Positions 52,888 to 64,000 of a stretch of 64,000 nt of DNA are shown here, piece by piece (the stretch's first letter is position 1; each line of letters starts with the position of its first letter). The position numbers were made by a program, and so were the translations under genes. The stretch covers positions 64,001 through 128,000 of the forward strand of contig JBMFRC010000009.1 in assembly GCA_049968235.1 (NCBI GenBank), given 5' to 3'. Under the pieces are notes generated by a model. That model saw nothing but the letters and a program-made list of their open reading frames with translations. It had not been told where the DNA came from and did not search any database. This DNA is from Candidatus Hydrogenedens sp. (GTDB lineage: Bacteria > Hydrogenedentota > Hydrogenedentia > Hydrogenedentales > Hydrogenedentaceae).

Positions 52888-52964
52888 CATTAAAATTTAT
52901 CTATTCAATGGGTCAAACATATCCAACCTGTCCAACCCATCGAATGTGCTTTATCCGATATTCT

Positions 52965-53648
52965 CTACCTTTCCAATTTTTTATGGGAGAACCACCAATC
53001 GAAACATTCATAACCACCTTCTTTTGCTTTAGATAAACGTTCTTTGGCACTATGGGTATCCGTTGGTGGTGGTATAATCACGCGGTCCTTAATCAATTCA
53101 TTGTTAGGCCAATTTTCAGGCATGGCAACCTTATACTTGTCCGCAATTTGTAACGCCTCTACAATTCGGACAACTTCGTCAATATTTCTACCTACCTCTT
53201 GCGGATAATAAATAATCAACCGTATCCTGGCTTTGTCATCCACAACAAATACTGCACGAACTGTATTCGTACCTTTTCCCGGATGGACCAATCCAAGAGT
53301 ATTAGCAATGGCTCCATTATCTGCAATAATAGGAAATTGAATATCAATTCCTAACTTCTCCCGTATCCATTCTTCCCACTTTATATGTGAGAACACCTGG
53401 TCCATACTTAGACCTATCAATTCGCAATTTAACGTCTTAAACTTATCATACCGTTTTTGAAATGCAACAAACTCTGTGGTGCATACAGGCGTAAAATCCG
53501 CTGGGTGGCTGAACAGAACAAACCACTTTCCTGCAAATGCCTTTGGCAATTCCATTTTCCCATGTGTTGTCATTACATTCATCGCAGGGAACTCATCTCC
53601 TAATAATGGAATCCCTTGTTTTGTCCCTTCAGAACTATTCATAGACAC
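52965..53648 (-). CDS. Peroxiredoxin (1-Cys Prx/Prx6 type)
   Basis: [12 protein letters not shown] peroxidatic-Cys motif. Confidence 0.85.
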
Positions 53649-53698
53649 TCTCCTTTCCTGAAAATAAAGTTAAATGTTACATAACACAATGAAAAATT

Positions 53699-55468: not shown

Positions 55469-55827
55469 TGGTGGAGGCGGCGGGAATCGAACCCGCGTCC
55501 GAAGATGTTTCAGTGCGGACCTACTACATGCTTAGCCCATCCTTTATAGATTCGCCATTGCGGAGCGCCTCAGGGCGGGCTCACCACAACCGCTATGCGG
55601 GATAGTTACTGCCTTTCAGGCACCGCAAATCCCAAAAGGACAGACCTGCTGGTTGACGCCCCAGTCCGTTAGCAGGCAATCACGGGTGGGACGCGCTGCG
55701 CGTATTAGGCAGCGAGGGCCAATTCTTGATTGGCAGTTGTTTGCGACCGGCTTTTAACGAGGCCAACCGGTCAACCTCGGCATGCATTCCACACCTCAAC
55801 CATCCCCGTCGAAACCTTTTCGCCCCC
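55469..55827 (-). ncRNA. ssrA: tmRNA (ssrA), one-piece; encoded tag ANQELALAA followed by UAA
   Basis: 5' GGGGGCGAAAAGGUUUCGACGGGG..GCAUGCCGAGG..UUGGCCUCGUUAAAAGCCGGUCGCAAAC.., tag ORF GCC AAU CAA GAA UUG GCC CUC GCU GCC UAA, 3' tRNA-like end GGGUUCGAUUCCCGCCGCCUCCACCA. Confidence 0.9.
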
Positions 55828-55970
55828 AGCAACATCCTATTATTCAATTGTTGTATTATATTATACGATATTTGATATCTAAAAATTTACAATAAAGATA
55901 AATTTTTTCAATAATATATTATTCTATTACTTATGTTGTCCCTATCTTTCTGGCTAAGATAAAATTAGAC

Positions 55971-57631
55971 ATGTCGAGAGGAAGTGAAGTAATGAAAAAT
56001 TTCTTCTCAAAAAAATCCTGCAAATCAATCTACTACCCTTTTGGATTCATTTTTTCTATCGTGCTAATTAATACGATTGCAAATAGTGAAGGAAATCAAC
56101 CAACATCTTTATCTACAACAATAGACCCCATTACTCGTTATATTCACATTTCATATACAGTCCCTGCAGGTACACCCGGAGAAAAACAATCTTATGCTCA
56201 TGATCTCCTATGGACAGACAACACATAGTCCTGAAACAAACCCATTACTACACAGGTTATACCGAAAGTAGAATTGATTATATTAAGTTAGTCCCCTTAT
56301 CCACAGAACAGGTACAAATGTTAGAAAGCCAATTTGGAACACCCGACAAAATCGTTGCAGGCTATTTTGAACCTTACTCATGGGCATTCTTCGAGGATAT
56401 ACAGGAAAGCCTGCAACATCGAGAACCTATTTCCACATATAAGGAAGCACGAGTTAATATCGTAGACATCCAGGTGGGTCGCTTCGGCATGAAAGTCGTT
56501 TATGAATCACGCTTAACCGACCAATTTCTTTACAACACTATCGGCGACCCTATCGGCGGTGTTATCCCCCATACAAGTAATGTCGGAAAAATGCAACAAA
56601 TGACCAACACATTACAAACCGAACTCCAATATGCCCACGAATTAGGCTTAACCGCACACGCCAACTTCGGAGCGACCTACTGCTATCCCGACACACCATT
56701 ACAAAGTGATTTTTCAAAACAACACCCCGATTGGATGACGGACGGATTATTGAGATATGACATACCCGAAGTTCGTCAATATATCTTATCCTTACTAAAA
56801 GAGACGCTTGAAATTGGTGCAGATGGCATCTCCATAGATTTTTGTAGGTATCCCGGTGGTATTGACAAACCTGAAACTTGCAATCAATTCCTGCGAGAAC
56901 TCAAAGCACTACGCGAAGAATTTGCAAAAAAACGTGATAAATCCATACCCTTATTACTCCGTTTCCCGGCGGAAGGTGTAAGTCTCTGGAAAAATTTCGA
57001 CTACAACACATGGATTCATGAAGGATTAGTTGATTACCTCTGCCCAAGCAACATCTAGGGCAGACATATGCACTTCGACATCACCCCATACAGCAACGCC
57101 GTTCGTGGCTCAACATGCAAACTACTCCCCGTCATTGATGGATTAAGTTGGGGACTCGAAATACCCGCCCTATTCCTATGGCGTATCCATCAACTCTACC
57201 AGGCAGGCACCGACGGCATTTATGTATACCAATCCGACGCACGCATCTGCACCAATAAACGACCAGAAGACAGACGCTGTATACGACTCATTTCCAGTAG
57301 CGAAGCAGTTCATAACTGGTGGCAACGATACAACAAACAAAATCAACAATTTAGCAAACGCATCTGGATACAACCCTCCGAAGACGGAGACCTCGAATAC
57401 CATAACTGGGAACGCTGTCGAATCTGGGTAGAAGGAATTACCCCTAACGAGGTCCAAATCCTCCTCGATGGACAACTCACCAATACTTATACTCAACCTC
57501 CCTAAATACTTGGCGGAGAAGATTACACCTACGATAACCTTATCACCCCCGGCACACACACCCTCACCATCCACGCCAAAACACAAGACACCACTCTATC
57601 CCAAACTTTCACCATCTCCGGCACAAAATAA
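55971..57631 (+). pseudogene. Disrupted glycoside-hydrolase-like family 10 (GHL10/DUF187) gene: one frameshift (about 56204-56228) and in-frame stops TAG (57056-58) and TAA (57503-05)
   Basis: Four consecutive ORF pieces that together read as one secreted protein (signal peptide ... GADGISIDFCRYPGG ... beta-sandwich C-terminus). Confidence 0.6.
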
Positions 57632-57704
57632 TAAGAACATTTATATTTCCGAACATCTTTCTCCCTTTTAAGAGATGAAACATTTTTTGTTCCTAAATTT
57701 TGTT

Positions 57705-57968
57705 TTATAAGGATAGAATTACACTATTAGAATCTACCCCATATTTATTGAAATATTGGTTTATATCCTTATAATGTTTTATTCGGTGAGGGTCCAAATA
57801 ATACAATTCCCAATGGCTAAGACTATTTATTATATAGTCCATGATTCTTTCATATTCTCTTTCATTCCGAATCACGTGTTCGTAATAATTCCTTTGCCAT
57901 GACTTCCTGTTTTCGTTTTCCAATCCAAAATTCTTATCCCCACATATATAGCCATTTGTTGTCATCAT
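57705..57968 (-). pseudogene. C-terminal fragment of an IS200/IS605-type Y1 (HuH) transposase (RAYT-like)
   Basis: SWQRNYYEHVIRNEREYERIMDYI matches the Y1-transposase C-terminal block (WQ.RFYDHVIRDE....YI.NNP). The HuH/Tyr N-terminal part is absent: only 99 bp remain before the next gene. Confidence 0.55.
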
Positions 57969-58067
57969 CTTAAATCACTGTAATACTTTTGACAGTAATA
58001 CCTACGATGATACTTGTATTGGCAAATCCATGTGTTCACTTTAAATATTAATAACATCTACAGAATT

Positions 58068-59387
58068 TCAAAACTCGAATTTCAGTACCCAGGCGTGTTG
58101 GCATGGGATTTGGGCAGGGGAGACGCAAGGTGTAGTTATAACTATTTGCCCGTATTGGTCTTCCGCATTTACCGGAATGTCTGTGCCGAGTAAGGTTACT
58201 TTGGGCACGGTCTGGAACTCAGCTGGTTTGGGGATGGTCCATGTCTCGGGGGGCCATTTCAACGCTATGGCATATATTGCATTCCCTTTGCGTGTGAAAC
58301 GGAAATTCTCCATCTTCGGTGCATCTTTCCATACATCCGTTCCGTAGATAGCATCACCGTTAACTTCTAACCATTTGCCCATCTCCAACAACCGTTCCTG
58401 CATTATCTCCGGTATGCGTCCATCTGCGGATGGACCTATGTCCAATAGTAGGTTACCACCCCGTGAGACATTATCTATGAGCAGGTGAAGCAATTCCGCG
58501 GTGCTACGGTAATTTTCCGCCGTCTCATTTCGGTTATAACCAAATGACCGACCCATACCCTGGCACTCTTCAAACAGTCCCTTTTCCATCAACGGACCCT
58601 CGGGGATATGTCCATACTCAGGTGTTGCAAAACCTCCATGTATATTACGACAATCTTTGCCCCAGCGGTCATTTACAACGATATCCTTTGGTGCGGGCGA
58701 TTCATTAAACAGCCAAGCTAAAAACTCCGTGCTCCGCCAGACAGAACTCGGATGGTCCCACTCCCCATCAGACCAGAACACATCCGGTTGATAGCGAATA
58801 ATTAAGTCTTTCATCTGCGGTAACATATGTTCCTCTACATAGCGATGTACATCCTGTTTATACAGCGGGTTGAACCATTCATATAATGAGTAGTAAAACC
58901 CGGCTTTAAGTCCAGCATTCTTTACTGCACTGATAAGGTCGCCTGCGAGGTCTCGATGCGGTCCGATGTCCATTGCGTTCCAATTCCAACTTTGCATACT
59001 GGGCCACATACAAAAGCCATCGTGATGTTTGGATGTCAAAACGACATATTTCGCACCCGACCTTTTAAATATATCTGCCCATTGGTTCGGGTCATATAAT
59101 TCTGCTTTGAACATTGGTGCAAAGTCCTGATATTGGAATTTTTCACCATATTTCTCAACATGGAATTTCCATGTGGCACCCTCTTTATTTTGCATGTGAT
59201 TCCAATACCATTCCGAATAAGTTTCCTTGGGTGCCCATGACGGGACGGAATATACCCCCCAGTGAATAAAAATACCAAATTTGGCATCTTCAAACCATTG
59301 CGGATTAGGTCGCTGGTCCAATGATTCCCATGTGGGCTCATAAGCAGTGGCAATAGCGGTCGCAATAACAAAGGATGTTAATAACAT
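58068..59387 (-). CDS. Alpha-L-fucosidase, GH29
   Basis: FGIFIHWGVYSVPSW and EWYWNHM blocks typical of GH29. Confidence 0.8.
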   Translation of the reverse strand: MLLTSFVIATAIATAYEPTWESLDQRPNPQWFEDAKFGIFIHWGVYSVPSWAPKETYSEWYWNHMQNKEGATWKFHVEKYGEKFQYQDFAPMFKAELYDPNQWADIFKRSGAKYVVLTSKHHDGFCMWPSMQSWNWNAMDIGPHRDLAGDLISAVKNAGLKAGFYYSLYEWFNPLYKQDVHRYVEEHMLPQMKDLIIRYQPDVFWSDGEWDHPSSVWRSTEFLAWLFNESPAPKDIVVNDRWGKDCRNIHGGFATPEYGHIPEGPLMEKGLFEECQGMGRSFGYNRNETAENYRSTAELLHLLIDNVSRGGNLLLDIGPSADGRIPEIMQERLLEMGKWLEVNGDAIYGTDVWKDAPKMENFRFTRKGNAIYAIALKWPPETWTIPKPAEFQTVPKVTLLGTDIPVNAEDQYGQIVITTPCVSPAQIPCQHAWVLKFEF

Positions 59388-59412
59388 AAGATATGCTCCT
59401 ATCGTTTAAAAT

Positions 59413-61779
59413 TTATTTTACTTTTAATTCTGTTATAACAATGCTATATGGTGGAATTTCCATTTCAGGGAAGGCTTTCTTATTGATTTTTTCTTCCTTC
59501 AGCCAGACGCCAGGTTCAGTATCAGGCAGGTTAATGGACATTGGGTCTTTGCCCGTGAGTATCCATGCGGTTTTCGGTGGTGTCACCTCCTTGCCTGCTA
59601 CACCTACATGGATATTAATTGCCCTATCCATGGGGTTTACCACAGAGAGAGTTAATATCCCCTCTTGCCCATCTTTCCAGGCAGAGAAAACATCAATTGG
59701 TACCATAGATACCCCTGCCTGATTGCTATCGGATAGCGGTTTTACCTCGACAGCTACAGGCACAGAACCGAAATGCTGACGGTACAGCATCAGGGTAAGC
59801 CCTGTCGTATCAAAGAAAGCAGTTGTTTTGGTAGTTTTAATGGCAGATATTACATTTACAGTCTGGGCATAATTTGCCATCGTTATTACATCACTATTGC
59901 GGAAAAATTCATGCAGACCAATAGCCACGCCTAAGGCATCTTTCAGGTGGTAAACACAACCTAACTCACCATAGACATGGTCGCCATACCAATAGTTCCA
60001 TTCGTCCATTGCAATGGGCACAAATTTCTCCTTTAAAGCAGGTATCGTTTCCAAATAACCTTTATGATTTTTAACTTTGGCTTTTATTCTCTCGGCTAAC
60101 TGGTAAACATGTTCAAGCACATCCTTTTTTTCTCCACAATAAAAGTGTTCACTTATAAAATCCATATTATTTGCACAATTTTCCAGCATTTTCTGGCTCC
60201 AGATACCCATATTTTCGCCTACACCCACTAACTTAATATTCGGGTCAACTGCTTTCATTGCTTGCGCAAATTCATTATGCCTCTTAACATAGTCATCCAC
60301 AGGGATATGTCCCAATTGCCACTCGCCATACATTTCATTGCCAACGCCCCAGTAGGTAATTTTGTATGGTTCGGGGTTGCCATTATCGGCACGCCATTTG
60401 CCCATAGGAGTATCAACTGAGCCATTAGCATATTCGACCATATCACGTGCTAACTGCACATCGCCCAGACCTGTATTAACCACCGCCAACGGTTCTGTTC
60501 CTATTTCTCTACAGAATTGGATAAATTCGTCTATACCAAAATCATTGGTATCAATACCTCCCCAGGCTGGGTTCTTGCGTGTTGGACGTTTATCCGGGTC
60601 TCCAATGCCGTCTTTCCAGTTATAACCACTGACGAAATTGCCACCAGGCCAGCGATAAATGGGCGAATTAAGTTGTCTAAGCAAGGTTAATGTATCCGCT
60701 CTCATCCCTTTGATATTATCTCCAGGCATAAGTGAGACCGCACCAATGAATAGGTTACCCTGCCCTGTAGCAAGAATAGCAAATTGAGCAGGTTTGCCAT
60801 CTTTATCCACTTTCAATCGGAATGTATATTTCTGATAATCCTGTGAAATATTTTGGATAATAGCGGGTTCGCCCAATAAAGTGTCGCCAGAACGAAGGAC
60901 AATTTTAACTATAACATCCGTATGCGTCGATTTTAGCACAATCCTACCCACATATTCCTTACCTGCAACCACTTCTAATCCATCCTGCACCAGCCCCCGT
61001 TCATGCCTCTGATTTAGCAGTATAACAGGCGAATACCAACTCGTATATGGATGAATCTGATCAATAAAGAGCATCATGTCCGATGGGAACAATTTCCATG
61101 GGGAATCGTTGGTGTTGATGAGGTAGAAGAACTTGCGGTCTTCCAGCGTTTCTGCCCAGATACCACCATAAATACAGCGACCTAAATGTTCGATAAATTG
61201 ACCGTAGATAAATGGATGTATCGGAGTGCCTTTCTTTGAGGGGTCGATAGAAATGTTCATATCACCTATCACCATATCTGATATTTTTTCTAATTTTATA
61301 TCATCAAATATGGCGGAACCTTTCGCCAAACCCCAACCCCCAAAAAGGCAATTCACCATAATTCGTGTTTGTGAACCGACAAAAAAGGTAGATTCAACAT
61401 ATTTCCAATCATTCGTTCCGGATAATGCTTCTGTGCGAGCACCATCAATTCCATGAACATTGAGTAATGCACCCACACCATTTTCTAATTGAATGTTATC
61501 TGTTTTAATCCAGCCGGAGAGTTTGTATTGGGCAAATGGGTCAACATCAATTTCATTGAACCAGGATAAATCACCACCTTCGGTGGAAGAAATCTGGACT
61601 GCATTGCCACTTTTCCCCGGTACGGGATATTGGAATTCACCTTTACCCTGCCAGACCCTTGTCTGCCAGTTATCAGGGGCAGTTGAGCCCTGTTCGAAGG
61701 CTTCTTCAAACATGATTTGAGCAAAAACAAAAGGGGTTAAAAGGATAAACATTACGAATATGACTGAGTTTGGTTTCAT
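59413..61779 (-). CDS. GH51 alpha-L-arabinofuranosidase with an N-terminal CBM/galactose-binding-like domain, secreted
   Basis: YRWPGGNFVSGYNWKDGIG is the GH51 signature; signal peptide; N-terminal beta-sandwich of about 170 aa. Confidence 0.75.
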   Translation of the reverse strand: MKPNSVIFVMFILLTPFVFAQIMFEEAFEQGSTAPDNWQTRVWQGKGEFQYPVPGKSGNAVQISSTEGGDLSWFNEIDVDPFAQYKLSGWIKTDNIQLENGVGALLNVHGIDGARTEALSGTNDWKYVESTFFVGSQTRIMVNCLFGGWGLAKGSAIFDDIKLEKISDMVIGDMNISIDPSKKGTPIHPFIYGQFIEHLGRCIYGGIWAETLEDRKFFYLINTNDSPWKLFPSDMMLFIDQIHPYTSWYSPVILLNQRHERGLVQDGLEVVAGKEYVGRIVLKSTHTDVIVKIVLRSGDTLLGEPAIIQNISQDYQKYTFRLKVDKDGKPAQFAILATGQGNLFIGAVSLMPGDNIKGMRADTLTLLRQLNSPIYRWPGGNFVSGYNWKDGIGDPDKRPTRKNPAWGGIDTNDFGIDEFIQFCREIGTEPLAVVNTGLGDVQLARDMVEYANGSVDTPMGKWRADNGNPEPYKITYWGVGNEMYGEWQLGHIPVDDYVKRHNEFAQAMKAVDPNIKLVGVGENMGIWSQKMLENCANNMDFISEHFYCGEKKDVLEHVYQLAERIKAKVKNHKGYLETIPALKEKFVPIAMDEWNYWYGDHVYGELGCVYHLKDALGVAIGLHEFFRNSDVITMANYAQTVNVISAIKTTKTTAFFDTTGLTLMLYRQHFGSVPVAVEVKPLSDSNQAGVSMVPIDVFSAWKDGQEGILTLSVVNPMDRAINIHVGVAGKEVTPPKTAWILTGKDPMSINLPDTEPGVWLKEEKINKKAFPEMEIPPYSIVITELKVK

Positions 61780-61854
61780 ATTTGTTTCTCCATGTTTGGA
61801 TTTAATAATTGTTATGGCAAAAAAGGAAAGATAAATGCAAATAAAGTTGGGGGA

Positions 61855-61884
61855 GAATCGGACGGGTCGGACGGGTCAGACGGG
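61855..61884. repeat. Tandem 9-bp repeat array A (GAATCGGAC GGGTCGGAC GGGTCAGAC...) immediately 5' of tRNA-Pro
   Basis: Visible 9-mer periodicity NRGTCRGAC. Confidence 0.7.
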
Positions 61885-61936
61885 GTGATGGTGAAATTGC
61901 TATTTTTGAGGTAGAATAGATATAATAGTGTTGTTT

Positions 61937-62014
61937 CGGGGCGTAGCGCAGTCCGGCTAGCGCACTTGGTTTGGGTCCAAGGGGTCGCCGGTTCAAATCC
62001 GGCCGCCCCGACCA
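61937..62014 (+). tRNA. tRNA-Pro (anticodon TGG), CCA encoded
   Basis: CGGGGCGTAGCGCAGTCCGGCTAGCGCACTTGGTTTGGGTCCAAGGGGTCGCCGGTTCAAATCCGGCCGCCCCGACCA; anticodon loop UUUGGGU. Confidence 0.85.
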
Positions 62015-62024
62015 TGAAGTTAAA

Positions 62025-62078
62025 GGGTCAGACAAGTCAGACGGGTCGGACAGGTCAGACAAGTCGGACAAGTCGGAC
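62025..62078. repeat. Tandem 9-bp repeat array B (6 copies of NRGTCRGAC) immediately 3' of tRNA-Pro
   Basis: GGGTCAGAC AAGTCAGAC GGGTCGGAC AGGTCAGAC AAGTCGGAC AAGTCGGAC. Confidence 0.75.
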
Positions 62079-62107
62079 GAAAAAACACAAAATAGAAAGG
62101 AAGGGTT

Positions 62108-62698
62108 ATGTCTGATGGGAGGTTAATTCCTCCACATGGGGGCTATCGGAGATTGCGGAGTTTTCAAGTAGCACAGGAGATATATGACGCGACGGTATTG
62201 TTTTGTTAGCGGTTTATTGATAAGAAGTCAAGAACATATGACCAGATGATTCAGGCGAGCAGGAGTGGGGTTCAAAATATTGCAGAAGGGAGTGTGGCGT
62301 CTGCGACATCAAAGAAGATGGAGATTAAGTTGACAGGTGTGGCAAAGGCAAGTTTGGAGGAGTTGTTGCGGGATTATGAGGATTATTTGAGACAACATGG
62401 TTTGAAACAATGGGGTAAGGATTCGCCGGAGGCAGGAAGGATAAGGGAGATGTATAAGTCGGACAGGTTGGACAAGTTAGACGAGGTGGACCCGTCAGAC
62501 AAGTCGGATATTTATGGGATAAGGACAGCGTCGGCAGAGGTTGCGGGGAATACGGTGATTTGTTTGATTCATCAGGCGACATATTTGTTGAGGAAGCAGT
62601 TAGAACGTTTGGAACGGGAGTTTTTGGAGAAGGGTGGTTTTACGGAGCGGATGTATTGGGAACGAAAACGTTGGCGAGAGAGAGAGAAGAAAGAGTAG
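62108..62698 (+). pseudogene. Four-helix-bundle protein (23S rRNA intervening-sequence protein family) with an in-frame TAG at 62207-09 and an in-frame insertion of 9-bp repeats (array C)
   Basis: N-terminus MSDGRLIPPHGGYRRLRSFQVAQEIYDATVLFC-TAG-...SRSGVQNIAEGSVAS...VAKASLEELL matches the 4HB-family blocks (Q..RA..SI..NIAEG, A.GSL.EL). Residues SDRLDKLDEVDPSDKSD are encoded by degenerate GTCGGAC 9-mers. Confidence 0.6.
62456..62509. repeat. 9-bp repeat array C, inside the 4HB coding sequence and in frame
   Basis: AAGTCGGAC AGGTTGGAC AAGTTAGAC GAGGTGGAC CCGTCAGAC AAGTCGGAT. Confidence 0.65.
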
Positions 62699-62733
62699 AG
62701 TCGGACGGGTCGGACGGGTCGGACAAGTCGGAC
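62698..62733. repeat. 9-bp repeat array D at the 3' end of the 4HB gene
   Basis: GAGTCGGAC GGGTCGGAC GGGTCGGAC AAGTCGGAC. Confidence 0.75.
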
Positions 62734-62870
62734 ATTTAAAACAGATAAAAATGAAAAAAAATAAACGAATCAAATTGAAGGCTATACCTCCCGTTAATTT
62801 GCCAGGATAATCCTTCCTATTTTACTATTTGAGTATTCTAATTTTATGAAATTAATAGAAAGGGATTGTC

Positions 62871-64000
62871 ATGGAAAGAAACATTTGTCATTTCATTACG
62901 AATCATGAACAAAAAAGTCTTCGGGAACGTATAAGAGAACTTATTACTATCAGCAAAGAACTTAAAATTTTAGTGGGTTTCTTCTATTTTTCCGGGATAA
63001 CAGAGTTGTATGAAAGTTTACAAAAAAATCCTAACATTGTGATTAAAGTGCTTATAGGTATGGATGTCGATAAATTAATTAATAAGTTGATTGAATATGC
63101 CAATCCAGACACCTCATTAACTGATAAAGATAGAATTGACTATTTTTTTAAATCATTAAAAACGGCTCTTACTTCCGAAGATATGGACCGTCCCGAGCCC
63201 TACCGACAGATTTCTTATTTCCTGAAACTCATCCAGGAAAATCGTATTATCATCCGAAAAACAAGAAAACCCAATCATTCAAAACTTTATATCTTCAAAA
63301 TATCAGAAGGGCAGGATTTAATTCGCGATACGCTATTCATCACGGGAAGTAGCAATTTGACACACGCAGGTCTATCGGGACAGGGCGAGTTCAATGTTGA
63401 AATAAGTGATTATGGAACAAAAGAAGCGGAAGCGTTTTTTGACGATTTATGGGATGATGCAGTGAAAATCACAGAAACAGAGGAAACAAAAAAGAAACTA
63501 ATCCAGATTATCAATACGGAAACAATGTTTGCATCGATAAAACCTTTTGAGGCTTATACCCTGGTCCTGAAATCCTACCTTGATGCAAATAGTATGAAAG
63601 AGGTTAGTTTAGAGTCCCTTAAAGAAACTATGGAGAAAAAAGGATATGTGCCTTATAAATATCAGATGGACGCTGTTCAATTAGCTTTATCTATTATCAA
63701 TGCTTATGACGGCGTTATTATTGCCGACGTGGTCGGTTTGGGCAAAACGATTATTGCCTGTGCCGTAGCCCGACTTTTAAGAAAACGCGGAATTGTCATC
63801 TCTCCACCGGGGATTATGGGCGATGAGTTGAGGCAATATGGTTGGCGTAAGTATATCGAAGAATTTGGTCTCTATGACTGGGAGGTTTTTTCCAGCGGGA
63901 AACTTGATACCATATTGAAAACAGTTCGTAGATGTGAAGATATTGAGGTGATTATCATTGATGAAGCACATAAATACCGCAATCAGGATACAGAAAGTTA
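62871..64000 (+). CDS. PLD-family nuclease domain fused to an SNF2-family helicase (partial; continues beyond the window end)
   Basis: Single HKD motif (NHSKLYIFK...DTLFITGSSNLTHAGL) followed by SNF2 motif I (IIADVVGLGKTIIA) and motif II (IIIDEAHKYRN). The ORF is open to the window edge and is absent from the ORF track. Confidence 0.7.
   Translation, partial: MERNICHFITNHEQKSLRERIRELITISKELKILVGFFYFSGITELYESLQKNPNIVIKVLIGMDVDKLINKLIEYANPDTSLTDKDRIDYFFKSLKTALTSEDMDRPEPYRQISYFLKLIQENRIIIRKTRKPNHSKLYIFKISEGQDLIRDTLFITGSSNLTHAGLSGQGEFNVEISDYGTKEAEAFFDDLWDDAVKITETEETKKKLIQIINTETMFASIKPFEAYTLVLKSYLDANSMKEVSLESLKETMEKKGYVPYKYQMDAVQLALSIINAYDGVIIADVVGLGKTIIACAVARLLRKRGIVISPPGIMGDELRQYGWRKYIEEFGLYDWEVFSSGKLDTILKTVRRCEDIEVIIIDEAHKYRNQDTES

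What the first reader, a model, noticed from the sequence alone, without database searches (positions are those of the whole stretch)
61855..62733. Tandem 9-bp GTCGGAC-type repeat arrays flank tRNA-Pro and a four-helix-bundle gene, and one array is inserted in frame inside that gene
Four arrays of the nonamer NRGTCRGAC, with 3-6 copies each, occur within 900 bp. Two bracket tRNA-Pro(TGG), one sits at the 3' end of a 23S-IVS-type four-helix-bundle protein gene, and one lies inside its coding sequence. The internal array is 54 bp long, so it adds 18 residues (SDRLDKLDEVDPSDKSDI) without breaking the reading frame. Elsewhere in the gene the family-typical sequence blocks are intact. An in-frame minisatellite insertion into a CDS, next to copies of the same repeat around a tRNA, points to a locally expanding and proliferating repeat family. 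Four-helix-bundle genes are themselves suspected selfish passengers.
Basis: seen in the sequence. Interest (0 to 1): 0.6.

Follow-up and report, generated by a model that had tools for sequence, protein, structure and literature searches.

The report
Palindromic 9-bp repeats in defence cassette
Four runs of a 9-base repeat built around the small palindrome GTCNGAC surround and run through a broken copy of a small defence-island gene; the run inside the gene is a trademark of the whole gene family and is conserved at the DNA level, not a recent insertion, and the same repeat also sits in-frame inside unrelated housekeeping genes of other bacteria.

Summary
The arrays, tRNA-Pro(TGG) and the four-helix-bundle gene are real. 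Two points in the finding are wrong. The gene has an in-frame TAG at codon 34, kept in two near-identical MAGs, so it is a probable pseudogene. The 18-residue "insert" aligns with an SDx repeat loop found throughout the TIGR04258 family, so it is not a local insertion.

New findings:
- The loop is constrained as DNA. Ser is TCN in 160/160 codons, Asp is GAC in 90%, and the preceding codon ends in G in 91%. This preserves GTCNGAC at 9-bp phase.
- The same arrays lie in noncoding DNA next to the start and stop of the gene in many phyla.
- A second subfamily carries a different palindromic 9-mer (TAGGNCCTA) both in its loop and in its flanks. The two classes never mix.
- The gene behaves as a ~550-bp horizontally exchanged cassette inside type I R-M, CRISPR-Cas and Hma operons.
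- All four arrays differ in copy number between orthologous loci. Homology to the orthologue ends exactly at the last array, after which the defence genes differ.
- GTCNGAC arrays also occur in-frame in MutS, topoisomerase I, GyrA, UvrB and others.

What maintains the cores is unknown. I infer a sequence-specific factor. I found no prior description.

The parts
61855..61881 (+). Array 1: 3 units of NNGTCRGAC (GA-ATCGGAC, GG-GTCGGAC, GG-GTCAGAC), noncoding, upstream of tRNA-Pro
   Evidence: (period 9, score 47). The orthologous loci L083/L084 have about 13 units here and L086 has none.
61937..62014 (+). tRNA-Pro(TGG), bracketed by arrays 1 and 2
   Evidence: ARAGORN. Rfam RF00005 at 64.7 bits. 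Identical in the orthologous loci.
62025..62078 (+). Array 2: 6 perfect units, noncoding, ending 29 bp before the start codon of the gene
   Evidence: (period 9, 18 and 27; scores 62-85). There are 5 units in L083/L084 and about 7 degenerate units in L086. Homologues in other phyla have arrays at the same position.
62108..62698 (+). Four-helix-bundle suffix-domain gene (TIGR04258 / TIGR02436 family), 196 codons, probable pseudogene
   Evidence: The intact orthologues P0001 and P0003 lie in syntenic loci. GC is 47% with GC skew about +0.5, against 37% GC for the window.
62207..62209 (+). In-frame TAG at codon 34 (GAG Glu in orthologue L083)
   Evidence: Conserved in L001 and L002. TAG ends 4 of 44 long ORFs in the window.
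62456..62509 (+). Array 3: 6 units in frame (AAGTCGGAC AGGTTGGAC AAGTTAGAC GAGGTGGAC CCGTCAGAC AAGTCGGAT). It encodes the SDx loop between helix 3 and helix 4 and is partly decayed.
   Evidence: It aligns with the family-wide SDx repeat. That segment is disordered in the model of the orthologue. There are 4 perfect units in L083 and 7 units in L086.
62700..62733 (+). Array 4: 4 perfect units starting 2 bp after the stop codon. Its last base is the end of homology with the orthologous locus.
   Evidence: score 54. blastn homology to L083/L084 (89-91%) ends at 62733. L083 has 5 units plus a degenerate tract of about 200 bp, and L086 has at least 9 units.
62871..64000 (+). Downstream defence-type gene, cut by the window end: PLD (NgoFVII-like) nuclease domain plus SNF2/ResIII helicase. 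It replaces the HmaA-HmaB genes of the orthologous loci.
   Evidence: Pfam, PADLOC, and no DNA homology to L083/L086.

Best explanation
The four arrays are copies of a DNA-level 9-bp minisatellite whose core is the interrupted palindrome GTCNGAC. The repeat is a built-in feature of the TIGR04258 'four-helix-bundle suffix' gene.

Shown:
- One array encodes the disordered loop between helix 3 and helix 4 of the protein. Its 9-bp period keeps the reading frame.
- Further arrays lie just outside the start and stop codons.
- The gene is a discrete cassette of about 550 bp, exchanged between phyla. It sits inside defence operons: before hsdR in type I R-M systems, between cas7 and cas4 in CRISPR-Cas loci, and before hmaA in Hma systems.
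- In this window the cassette lies between tRNA-Pro and a defence island, and it has been inactivated by a nonsense codon.
- The arrays gain and lose units between species, in multiples of 9 bp. This is minisatellite behaviour.
- The outermost array coincides with a recombination junction, beyond which the defence genes have been swapped.

Inferred:
- The six core bases stay fixed while the central base and the 2-bp spacer drift, and this holds in coding and noncoding copies alike. Protein-level selection cannot explain that, so a sequence-specific process must maintain the cores.
- My preferred version is recognition of the palindrome by a dimeric DNA-binding factor tied to the cassette, possibly its own protein. 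The reason is that the repeat motif follows the protein subfamily (GTCNGAC or TAGGNCCTA) and not the host phylum.
- Unit gain and loss would occur by replication slippage or unequal exchange.
For: Family-wide loop: alignments of homologues from many phyla carry an SDx repeat of variable length at this position.

DNA-level constraint:
- In SD linkers, Ser is TCN in 160/160 codons, against 53% elsewhere in the same genes. Asp is GAC in 90% against 62%. The preceding codon ends in G in 91% against 32%. The central N is free.
- In the second subfamily, Tyr is TAT in 93/93 codons against 56% elsewhere, and Arg is AGG in 42/44 against 14%.

Flank arrays:
- GTCNGAC density is 4.3 per kb in the 150-bp flanks against 0.29 per kb further away. 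For TAGGNCCTA the figures are 4.0 and 0.024 per kb.
- Internal and flank classes are strictly concordant: A/A 10, B/B 6, A/B 0, B/A 0.
- Both classes occur within the same phyla.
- Eleven metagenome loci show the same up/internal/down layout.

Other points:
- Structure: the repeat is the only disordered internal segment, lying between helices 107-117 and 137-169. The fold matches 2GSC and 2RLD.
- Copy-number change in all four arrays between orthologous loci.
- Homology ends at 62733, and the downstream genes are HmaA/HmaB in the orthologues against a PLD-helicase here.
- Cassette behaviour: 80-85% nucleotide identity between phyla, confined to the gene plus or minus about 30 bp.
- Defence context of tight same-strand neighbours: Cas7 10, HsdS 4 and HsdM 3 upstream; HSDR_N 8, SNF2/ResIII 7 and Cas4 7 downstream. 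Zhang & Ye 2013 (PMC3936711) reported PF05635 genes in cas loci next to cas4/cas6.
- Flank arrays share the strand asymmetry of the internal array, so they are direct copies.
Against: - There is no direct evidence for any binding factor. The protein has no PADLOC hit and no recognisable DNA-binding domain.
- Only about a third of loci have flank arrays, so the arrays are not essential to the cassette.
- GTCNGAC arrays also occur far from any such gene, inside MutS, TopA, GyrA, UvrB, GH2 and others. Whatever maintains the cores therefore does not need a cassette nearby.
- In this window the gene is a pseudogene, yet the three noncoding arrays are 12/13 perfect while the coding array has decayed. 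That does not fit maintenance by this copy's own product, although another copy in the genome cannot be excluded.
- A drive-type mutational process could mimic selection on the cores.
- The junction at array 4 is a single observation.
Confidence: 0.6

Rival explanations
1. A locally proliferating minisatellite recently inserted 54 bp in frame into an otherwise ordinary four-helix-bundle gene, and copies also landed around the neighbouring tRNA.
For: Array 1 is present in the window and in L083/L084 but absent from the more distant orthologue L086, so new arrays do arise locally. The same repeat type is a lineage-specific acquisition in a verrucomicrobial MutS and occurs in other unrelated genes.
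Against: Homologues in more than 15 phyla have the same protein length and an SDx repeat at the same loop. Orthologues P0001 and P0003 have it too. A sister subfamily has a different 9-bp repeat at exactly the same position.
Confidence: 0.08
2. A purely selfish or neutral minisatellite. Slippage, unequal exchange and biased gene conversion, or preferential duplication of intact units, keep the palindromic cores. No trans-acting factor is involved and the arrays have no function. Flank arrays are spill-over copies of the internal array.
For: Higher-order 18-, 27- and 36-bp periodicities show that the arrays grow in blocks. Imperfect units are co-amplified in L083 array 1. Flank arrays are direct copies that share strand bias with the internal array. 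Only about a third of loci have flank arrays. Arrays exist without the cassette. The repeat is stop-free in most frames on both strands, so it is tolerated in coding DNA (read from the sequence).
Against: The same six core bases are conserved across more than 15 phyla while three positions drift. Neutral turnover should let the consensus wander. It also does not explain why two different palindromic 9-mers occupy the identical loop in two subfamilies.
Confidence: 0.25
3. RNA-level element. Palindromic arrays upstream of, inside and downstream of the gene pair in the transcript to form long stems. This would resemble the RNase III-processed stems that flank four-helix-bundle ORFs in 23S rRNA intervening sequences, and would excise or regulate the cistron within defence operons.
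For: The broader family was first found inside 23S rRNA intervening sequences (Ralph & McClelland 1993, cited in PMC3936711). The cores are self-complementary. The cassette sits inside operons.
Against: In this window every central N and nearly every spacer base is a purine on the coding strand, so arrays could pair only through 3-bp helices. Across loci, flank and internal arrays share strand bias, so they are direct copies and not complements. Many loci have a single array or none in the flanks. No Rfam family matched apart from the tRNA.
Confidence: 0.04
4. Protein-level explanation. The family needs an acidic Ser-Asp-rich flexible loop, for example as a DNA mimic or a phosphorylation site, and the flanking arrays are remnants of decayed gene copies.
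For: The loop is disordered and acidic in the SD subfamily.
Against: Synonymous positions are constrained: x3 is G, Asp is GAC, and Ser is never AGY. The sister subfamily has a basic and aromatic loop (RSYxTYKTY) at the same place, with equally constrained codons. Flank arrays are noncoding and carry no other remnant of the gene. The repeat occurs in all three reading frames in other proteins.
Confidence: 0.03
5. Transposition footprints. The 9-bp unit is the duplicated target site of a transposase with a palindromic 9-bp target preference (compare the IS10 target NGCTNAGCN, from my own knowledge). Repeated insertion and excision would build arrays of target-site copies.
For: The unit length of 9 bp and the interrupted-palindrome core resemble known target-site duplications (own knowledge, not tested). 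Arrays are dispersed at 0.02-0.04 extra tracts per kb in array-bearing contigs.
Against: No recurrent gene family, and no transposase, was found within 400 bp of 118 independent arrays. This model does not explain the fixed position in the loop of the gene or the match between linker and flank motifs. Neighbouring units differ at N and spacer positions, which fresh duplications would not.
Confidence: 0.04

Closest known systems
TIGR04258 'four helix bundle suffix domain' / TIGR02436 / Pfam PF05635 (23S rRNA-intervening-sequence protein, 'S23 ribosomal protein' family; structures 2GSC Xcc0516 and 2RLD BT_0352)
   Same: The window gene scores above the NCBIfam cutoffs for both models. The model of its orthologue superposes on 2GSC and 2RLD. 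More than 8000 close homologues were found. The family's occurrence in cas loci next to cas4 is published (PMC3936711).
   Different: The window copy carries a nonsense codon. The database names and the papers I could search say nothing about a 9-bp DNA repeat in the loop or in the flanks.
Avd, the accessory variability determinant of diversity-generating retroelements
   Same: A homologous four-helix-bundle fold. PF05635 is reported to resemble Avd (PMC10053308). Both are small basic accessory proteins of mobile or defence-type systems.
   Different: No reverse transcriptase is called in the orthologous loci. The variable positions of the repeat (N and spacer) are not the adenine positions an adenine-specific mutagenesis would hit, because the A of GAC is invariant.
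Rickettsia palindromic elements (RPE) and similar selfish repeats that insert in frame into protein-coding genes
   Same: A palindromic DNA repeat found in-frame in loops of unrelated, functional housekeeping proteins: MutS, topoisomerase I, GyrA/ParC, UvrB, FGGY kinase. It shows presence/absence between close relatives.
   Different: RPEs are single elements of about 100-150 bp (own knowledge; reviewed in PMC10969869, listed but not read). Here the element is a tandem array of 9-bp units with degenerate spacer and centre. It is an integral, ancient part of one gene family.
Bacterial minisatellites / VNTRs (for example MIRU) and simple-sequence contingency loci of restriction-modification systems
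   Same: Tandem units whose number differs between related strains or species, in and between genes of operons. Repeats in type I R-M loci are known to cause phase variation (PMC7383803, listed but not read).
   Different: The unit is a multiple of three, so copy-number change cannot switch the frame on and off. The cores are conserved across phyla, unlike ordinary VNTRs. The motif co-varies with the protein subfamily.
tRNA-linked defence islands
   Same: The cassette lies directly 3' of tRNA-Pro. Beyond it the defence genes differ between close relatives: Hma system against PLD-helicase.
   Different: No integrase or attachment-site repeat was seen in the sequence available. The junction coincides with a minisatellite array and not with the tRNA 3' end.

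Membership tests
TIGR04258 / TIGR02436 four-helix-bundle suffix protein | HMM score above the curated cutoff | tested here: met
   TIGR04258 scored 73.1 bits (cutoff 40) and TIGR02436 scored 33.8 bits (cutoff 24). Pfam PF05635 scored 28.8 bits, below its gathering score of 33.8, but it is precomputed for nearly all homologues.
TIGR04258 / TIGR02436 four-helix-bundle suffix protein | Four-helix-bundle fold | tested here: met
   AlphaFold model of orthologue P0001: pLDDT 84, pTM 0.79. The best PDB matches are 2GSC (TM to target 0.84) and 2RLD.
TIGR04258 / TIGR02436 four-helix-bundle suffix protein | Intact open reading frame (a functional member) | tested here: not met
   In-frame TAG at codon 34, shared by L001 and L002. 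Orthologues have GAG.
Minisatellite / VNTR | Head-to-tail units whose copy number varies between related genomes | tested here: met
   All four arrays differ between the window, L083/L084 and L086. No difference was seen among MAGs 98.4-99.9% identical.
   The SDx repeat is present at the same loop in homologues of many phyla.
In-frame selfish palindromic repeats (RPE-like) | The same repeat inside unrelated functional genes, with presence/absence between close relatives | tested here: met
   Pfam-verified MutS, Topoisom_bac, DNA_topoisoIV, PSCyt2, FGGY, DUF4831, DnaB_C, GH2, GH94 and UvrB. The MutS loop polymorphism is shown.
In-frame selfish palindromic repeats (RPE-like) | A single long (~100-150 bp) palindromic element able to fold as a hairpin | tested here: not met
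   The units are 9 bp in tandem, and the strand-biased spacers prevent long hairpins.
Diversity-generating retroelement (Avd-type accessory gene) | Adjacent reverse transcriptase and template/variable repeat pair with adenine-specific differences | tested here: not met
   No RVT domain appears among the called genes of L083, L084 and L086. The invariant A in GAC is inconsistent with adenine mutagenesis. The whole window was not scanned for a reverse transcriptase.
tRNA-linked genomic island | Integrase and a direct repeat of the tRNA 3' end at the far border | not tested
   The island runs off the window end at 64000, and only 1.1 kb of it is visible.
Operator or centromere-like protein-binding repeat array | Specific binding by a cognate protein | not testable with these tools
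   Only indirect evidence: the motif follows the protein subfamily and not the host. GTCNGAC is known as a FadR/LldR-type operator core (papers listed).
Phase-variable contingency repeat | Unit length not divisible by three, or placement between the promoter hexamers | tested here: not met
   The unit is 9 bp. The promoter-like matches are at chance level and lie outside the arrays.

The most novel reading that the evidence does not exclude
The TIGR04258 cassette would be a self-marking element: a small, horizontally mobile defence-operon gene whose protein, or a partner, recognises an interrupted-palindrome 9-mer. The gene carries that 9-mer as arrays inside its own coding loop and at its borders, and protein subfamily and DNA motif co-evolve (GTCNGAC against TAGGNCCTA). 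The same recognition or copying process would seed arrays in-frame into housekeeping genes, producing a previously undescribed dispersed repeat family in many environmental phyla.
Probability: 0.2. Interest if true: 0.85.

Novelty: new variant of a known kind. Interest (0 to 1): 0.62.

Why it matters
Four-helix-bundle (PF05635) genes are among the most common unexplained passengers of R-M, CRISPR-Cas and DGR loci. Here a large subfamily turns out to carry a DNA-level signature: a palindromic 9-bp array in its own coding loop and at its borders, matched to the protein subfamily. That gives a concrete, testable handle on what these proteins recognise and how the cassette moves.

It is also a clear case of a coding sequence shaped by a constraint on the DNA itself. 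And it points to a dispersed repeat that colonises loops of essential proteins in uncultured phyla.

On the practical side, the arrays break assemblies and mislead gene callers, which produce spurious N-terminal extensions and split genes.

Tried and rejected
- Stop-codon reassignment for the TAG: rejected. TAG ends 4 of 44 long ORFs.
- RNA pairing between arrays: rejected on strand bias. Rfam found only the tRNA.
- Exact look-up of the 150-aa ORF2 product found nothing. It later appeared as P0002.
- My first gene-boundary script absorbed upstream arrays into the ORFs and under-counted flank arrays. I redid it with homology-anchored boundaries.
- Literature searches for TIGR04258, 'four helix bundle suffix', GTCNGAC and TAGGNCCTA found no description of the repeats. 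A search combining hsdR and type I restriction terms returned only generic papers.
- PDB sequence search with the family profile gave no hit. Fold search was needed.
- PADLOC gave no hit for the protein.
- Clustering ORFs around 118 independent arrays found no recurrent neighbour, so no transposase or other associated gene.
- Class B pattern in viral contigs returned only collagen-like Gly-Pro-Ile repeats. Likewise, the homogeneous 'GPT' hits of the class A pattern are coincidental.
- Promoter and terminator scan: counts were at chance level.
- Similarity between the DNA after array 4 and the DNA after the internal array (ATTTA...GATAA) was too weak to call a gene remnant.
Full report
**1. The observation**

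Reading 61500-63200 shows four tracts of the unit NNGTCRGAC:
- 61855-61881: 3 units, the first with an ATCGGAC core.
- 62025-62078: 6 perfect units.
- 62456-62509: 6 units, in the coding sequence.
- 62700-62733: 4 perfect units.

Tandem Repeats Finder reports the three noncoding tracts (period 9, scores 47-62, with 18- and 27-bp higher-order periods up to score 85). It does not report the internal tract, which is degenerate. A regular-expression scan recovers it in two pieces.

GTCRGAC occurs 17 times in the 64-kb window against 5.2 +/- 2.3 in shuffles, and 14 of the 17 lie in 61866-62733, all in 9-bp register. tRNA-Pro(TGG) is at 61937-62014.

The reading frame 62108-62698 matches TIGR04258 (four helix bundle suffix domain, 73 bits against a cutoff of 40) and TIGR02436 (33.8 bits against 24). 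Pfam PF05635 scores 28.8 bits, just under its gathering score.

**2.

The frame contains TAG at codon 34 (62207-62209). The ORF finder therefore splits the gene into 33-aa and 150-aa pieces in the same frame. Homologues have Asp, Glu or Gly at that position, and the orthologue has GAG.

TAG ends 4 of 44 long ORFs in the window, so nothing suggests reassignment. Two MAG contigs that are 98.4% and 99.9% identical to the window carry the same TAG and identical arrays. The gene is therefore most simply a pseudogene. Read-through cannot be excluded from sequence alone.

**3. The 'insert' is a family trait**

A protein search returned 8000 hits (the cap) at about 65-72% identity, with lengths close to the 196 codons found here. 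In the alignment, the 18 residues line up with an SDxSDx repeat of variable length (about 4-14 units) present in homologues from many phyla.

A scan of one genome per species found 578 encoding stretches. The 80 kept come from Armatimonadota, Kiritimatiellia, Bacteroidota, Planctomycetota, Acidobacteriota, Nitrospirota, Chloroflexota, Verrucomicrobiota, Desulfobacterota, Omnitrophota, WOR-3 and others.

An AlphaFold model of the intact orthologue (pLDDT 84, pTM 0.79) has helices at 17-36, 42-64, 69-96, 107-117, 137-169 and 172-189. The repeat (118-136) is the only disordered internal segment. The fold matches the family structures 2GSC and 2RLD.

**4. The loop is constrained as DNA**

In 41 loci with an SD linker:

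| Feature | In the linker | Elsewhere in the same genes |
|---|---|---|
| Ser encoded by TCN | 160 of 160 | 53% |
| Asp encoded by GAC | 90% | 62% |
| Preceding codon ends in G | 91% | 32% |

The central base is free (C 53, G 43, A 35, T 29). Together these rules preserve the interrupted palindrome GTCNGAC every 9 bp. The residues at x are essentially those that have an NNG codon.

**5. The same arrays lie outside the gene in other phyla, and a second subfamily has a second motif**

Printing the flanks of all 80 loci shows NNGTCNGAC arrays 10-60 bp upstream of the start or 1-30 bp downstream of the stop in many unrelated genomes.

About half of the loci belong to a sister subfamily whose loop reads K[ND]RSYxTYKTYIE. 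Their flanks carry arrays of a different 9-mer, TAGGNCCTA, which is also an interrupted palindrome. Their loop is encoded by the same unit (…AGG TCC TAT AAG ACC TAT…).

Quantified:
- Each motif is enriched in the 150-bp flanks: 4.3 against 0.29 per kb for GTCNGAC, and 4.0 against 0.024 per kb for TAGGNCCTA.
- The class of the flank arrays always equals the class of the internal array: 10 A/A, 6 B/B, none mixed.

Class B shows the same kind of codon constraint. Tyr is TAT in 93/93 codons against 56% elsewhere, and Arg is AGG in 42/44 against 14%. Both classes occur within the same phyla, so the motif follows the protein subfamily and not the host. Eleven metagenome loci containing the gene repeat the up/internal/down layout, two of them with four arrays as here.

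**6. The local history**

P0001 and P0003 are orthologues in syntenic Hydrogenedentes loci with the gene order glycosidase, tRNA-Pro, cassette, helicase, methylase.

Copy numbers in the DNA alignment:

| Array | Window | L083/L084 | L086 |
|---|---|---|---|
| 1 | 3 | ~13 | 0 |
| 2 | 6 | 5 | ~7 (degenerate) |
| Internal | 6 | 4 | 7 |
| 4 | 4 | 5, plus a ~200-bp degenerate tract | >=9 |

The arrays therefore behave as minisatellites, and array 1 is a recent local gain. Among MAGs 98.4-99.9% identical, arrays 1-3 do not differ (those contigs end before array 4).

Homology between the window and L083/L084 (89-91%) ends exactly at 62733, the last base of array 4. Beyond that point the orthologues encode HmaA (E = 4e-205) and HmaB (E = 3e-118). 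The window encodes an unrelated PLD-nuclease/SNF2-helicase protein. The cassette thus marks the tRNA-proximal edge of a defence island whose genes have been exchanged.

**7. What the cassette is**

Tightly adjacent same-strand neighbours in the 80 loci are dominated by defence genes:
- Upstream: Cas7 (10), HsdS (4), HsdM (3).
- Downstream: HsdR N-terminus (8), SNF2/ResIII (7), Cas4 (7), HsdS (3).

This agrees with the published observation that PF05635 genes occur in cas loci next to cas4/cas6 (PMC3936711). PF05635 is also reported to resemble the DGR accessory protein Avd (PMC10053308).

All-against-all blastn shows many inter-phylum pairs with 80-85% nucleotide identity that begins and ends within about 30 bp of the gene, for example L008/L009, L061/L069 and L044/L052. 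This is the signature of a discrete, horizontally exchanged cassette of about 550 bp.

A tRNA lies within 350 bp in 5 of 60 loci, and in metagenome locus L120. This is roughly tenfold more than I would expect from my own rough estimate of tRNA gene density, but it is not the rule.

**8. The repeat is not confined to this gene**

Only 11 contain the gene.

Homogeneous hits are coincidental collagen-like Gly-Pro-Thr repeats. The heterogeneous ones, with variable N and spacer as in this window, lie in-frame in Pfam-verified proteins:
- As SDx: MutS, topoisomerase I, GyrA/ParC, DUF1549, FGGY kinase, DUF4831 and a viral DnaB-like helicase.
- In the other two frames: a GH2 and a GH94 enzyme (V-G/R-x) and the UvrB inter-domain linker (x-P/L/R-T).
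- Just upstream of genes, and next to tRNAs that have no cassette nearby.

In a Chthoniobacter-like MutS, the array is present in two close relatives. It is absent from others that are 84-86% identical, where the same loop has unrelated sequence.

No recurrent gene accompanies the independent arrays. Contigs with one heterogeneous array have another separate tract every 30-50 kb, which implies dozens of arrays per genome.

The class B pattern found only collagen-like Gly-Pro-Ile repeats in viral contigs. Its independent spread is untested.

**9. Mechanism**

Shown:
- The arrays change by multiples of 9 bp, and sometimes in 18-36-bp blocks.
- Flank arrays are direct copies that share the strand asymmetry of the internal array. 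In this window every central N and nearly every spacer base is a purine on the coding strand.
- These two points rule out RNA or DNA pairing between arrays.
- Protein-level selection cannot explain the constraints at synonymous sites, the noncoding copies, or the use of all three frames.

Inferred: a sequence-specific process keeps the six core bases intact while three positions drift. The candidates are a dimeric factor that binds the palindrome, biased gene conversion or preferential duplication of intact units, or an enzyme that adds units.

I favour a factor linked to the cassette, because the motif tracks the protein subfamily across phyla. There is no direct evidence for this. The independent arrays, and the well-kept noncoding arrays around a dead gene in this window, argue against dependence on the local copy.

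The only literature context for GTCNGAC is as the core of FadR/LldR-type operators. That shows such a compact palindrome can be a protein site, and no more than that.

**10. Novelty and verdict**

The searchable literature holds no description of TIGR04258, of its repeat loop, or of GTCNGAC or TAGGNCCTA arrays. The library is incomplete, so this is absence of evidence only.

The closest known kinds are bacterial minisatellites (VNTRs) and in-frame selfish palindromic repeats such as the Rickettsia palindromic elements. The differences are the 9-bp tandem unit with a conserved interrupted palindrome, its fixed place in one gene family, and the match between coding and flanking motifs. I therefore class the finding as a new variant of a known kind.

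The specific locus in this window is a decayed copy at a defence-island border. The wider interest lies in the family-wide architecture that it reveals.

Noticed in passing
window 61800-62750: The cassette is compositionally foreign: about 46-51% GC against 37% for the window, with a very strong G>C skew (+0.44 to +0.57) on the coding strand. This is consistent with horizontal origin. Whether the skew is a family trait was not examined.
   Followed up: partly
window 52921-52947 (- strand): A degenerate three-unit tract (GG-GTTGGAC, AG-GTTGGAT, AT-GTTTGAC) lies about 20-25 bp past the stop of the gene at 52965-53669 (-). It may be a decayed array with the same GTC->GTT changes seen in the internal array, or it may be chance.
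   Followed up: partly
L001 and L002 (window 62569 and 62242): Contigs of two near-identical MAGs (GCA_049969095.1, GCA_049971155.1) both end inside the four-helix-bundle gene, not at an array. This hints that the gene is multi-copy in those genomes or that assembly is troublesome there.
   Followed up: no
window 55469-59405; L084 1-692; L086 629-1501: Between the tmRNA gene (55469-55827) and the fucosidase gene (58068-59405), the window has an ORF at 56204-57058 (+). The syntenic loci L084/L086 carry an AbiJ_NTD3-TIR_2 gene there, and no nucleotide homology was detected. This looks like a second variable, defence-type spot, next to tmRNA.
   Followed up: no
L083 4575-10339; L086 6574-12552: The orthologous loci carry the helicase and methylase of an Hma system (HmaA 4e-205, HmaB 3e-118) directly after the cassette. 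In L086 the downstream array appears to fill the 21-bp gap and run on into the called 5' end of hmaA.
   Followed up: partly
P0112, P0115; L027, L030, L039: Gene callers, and my own first script, extend the ORF upstream through the 5' array. This gives spurious N-terminal extensions such as 'SDKSDRSDRSD'. Arrays can also be read as C-terminal tails of upstream genes, as in L033.
   Followed up: partly
L047, L050, L052, L054, L059, L060, L066, L069, L072-L074, L078, L080: Class B cassettes sit between cas7 and cas4 of type I CRISPR-Cas operons. TAGGNCCTA units often lie between the cassette stop and the cas4 start, and some can be read as an N-terminal extension of Cas4 (L074: NRSYVTYPTYMTNMTYK...).
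   Followed up: partly
L033 4500-4535; L184; L174: In some class A loci, further arrays lie 600-1400 bp from the cassette, apparently inside neighbouring defence genes.
   Followed up: no
L078 (Candidatus Brocadia): The cassette appears disrupted or duplicated. Sequence encoding the middle of the protein (...LEELLLDFQDYLRQKGLKLWGKEH...) reappears downstream of a stop codon.
   Followed up: no
MutS homologues P0126-P0131, P0149, P0151: Many verrucomicrobial MutS entries in the protein collection are fragments of 200-480 aa even on very long contigs. Two close relatives break near the array-bearing loop, which may be gene calls split at the repeat.
   Followed up: no
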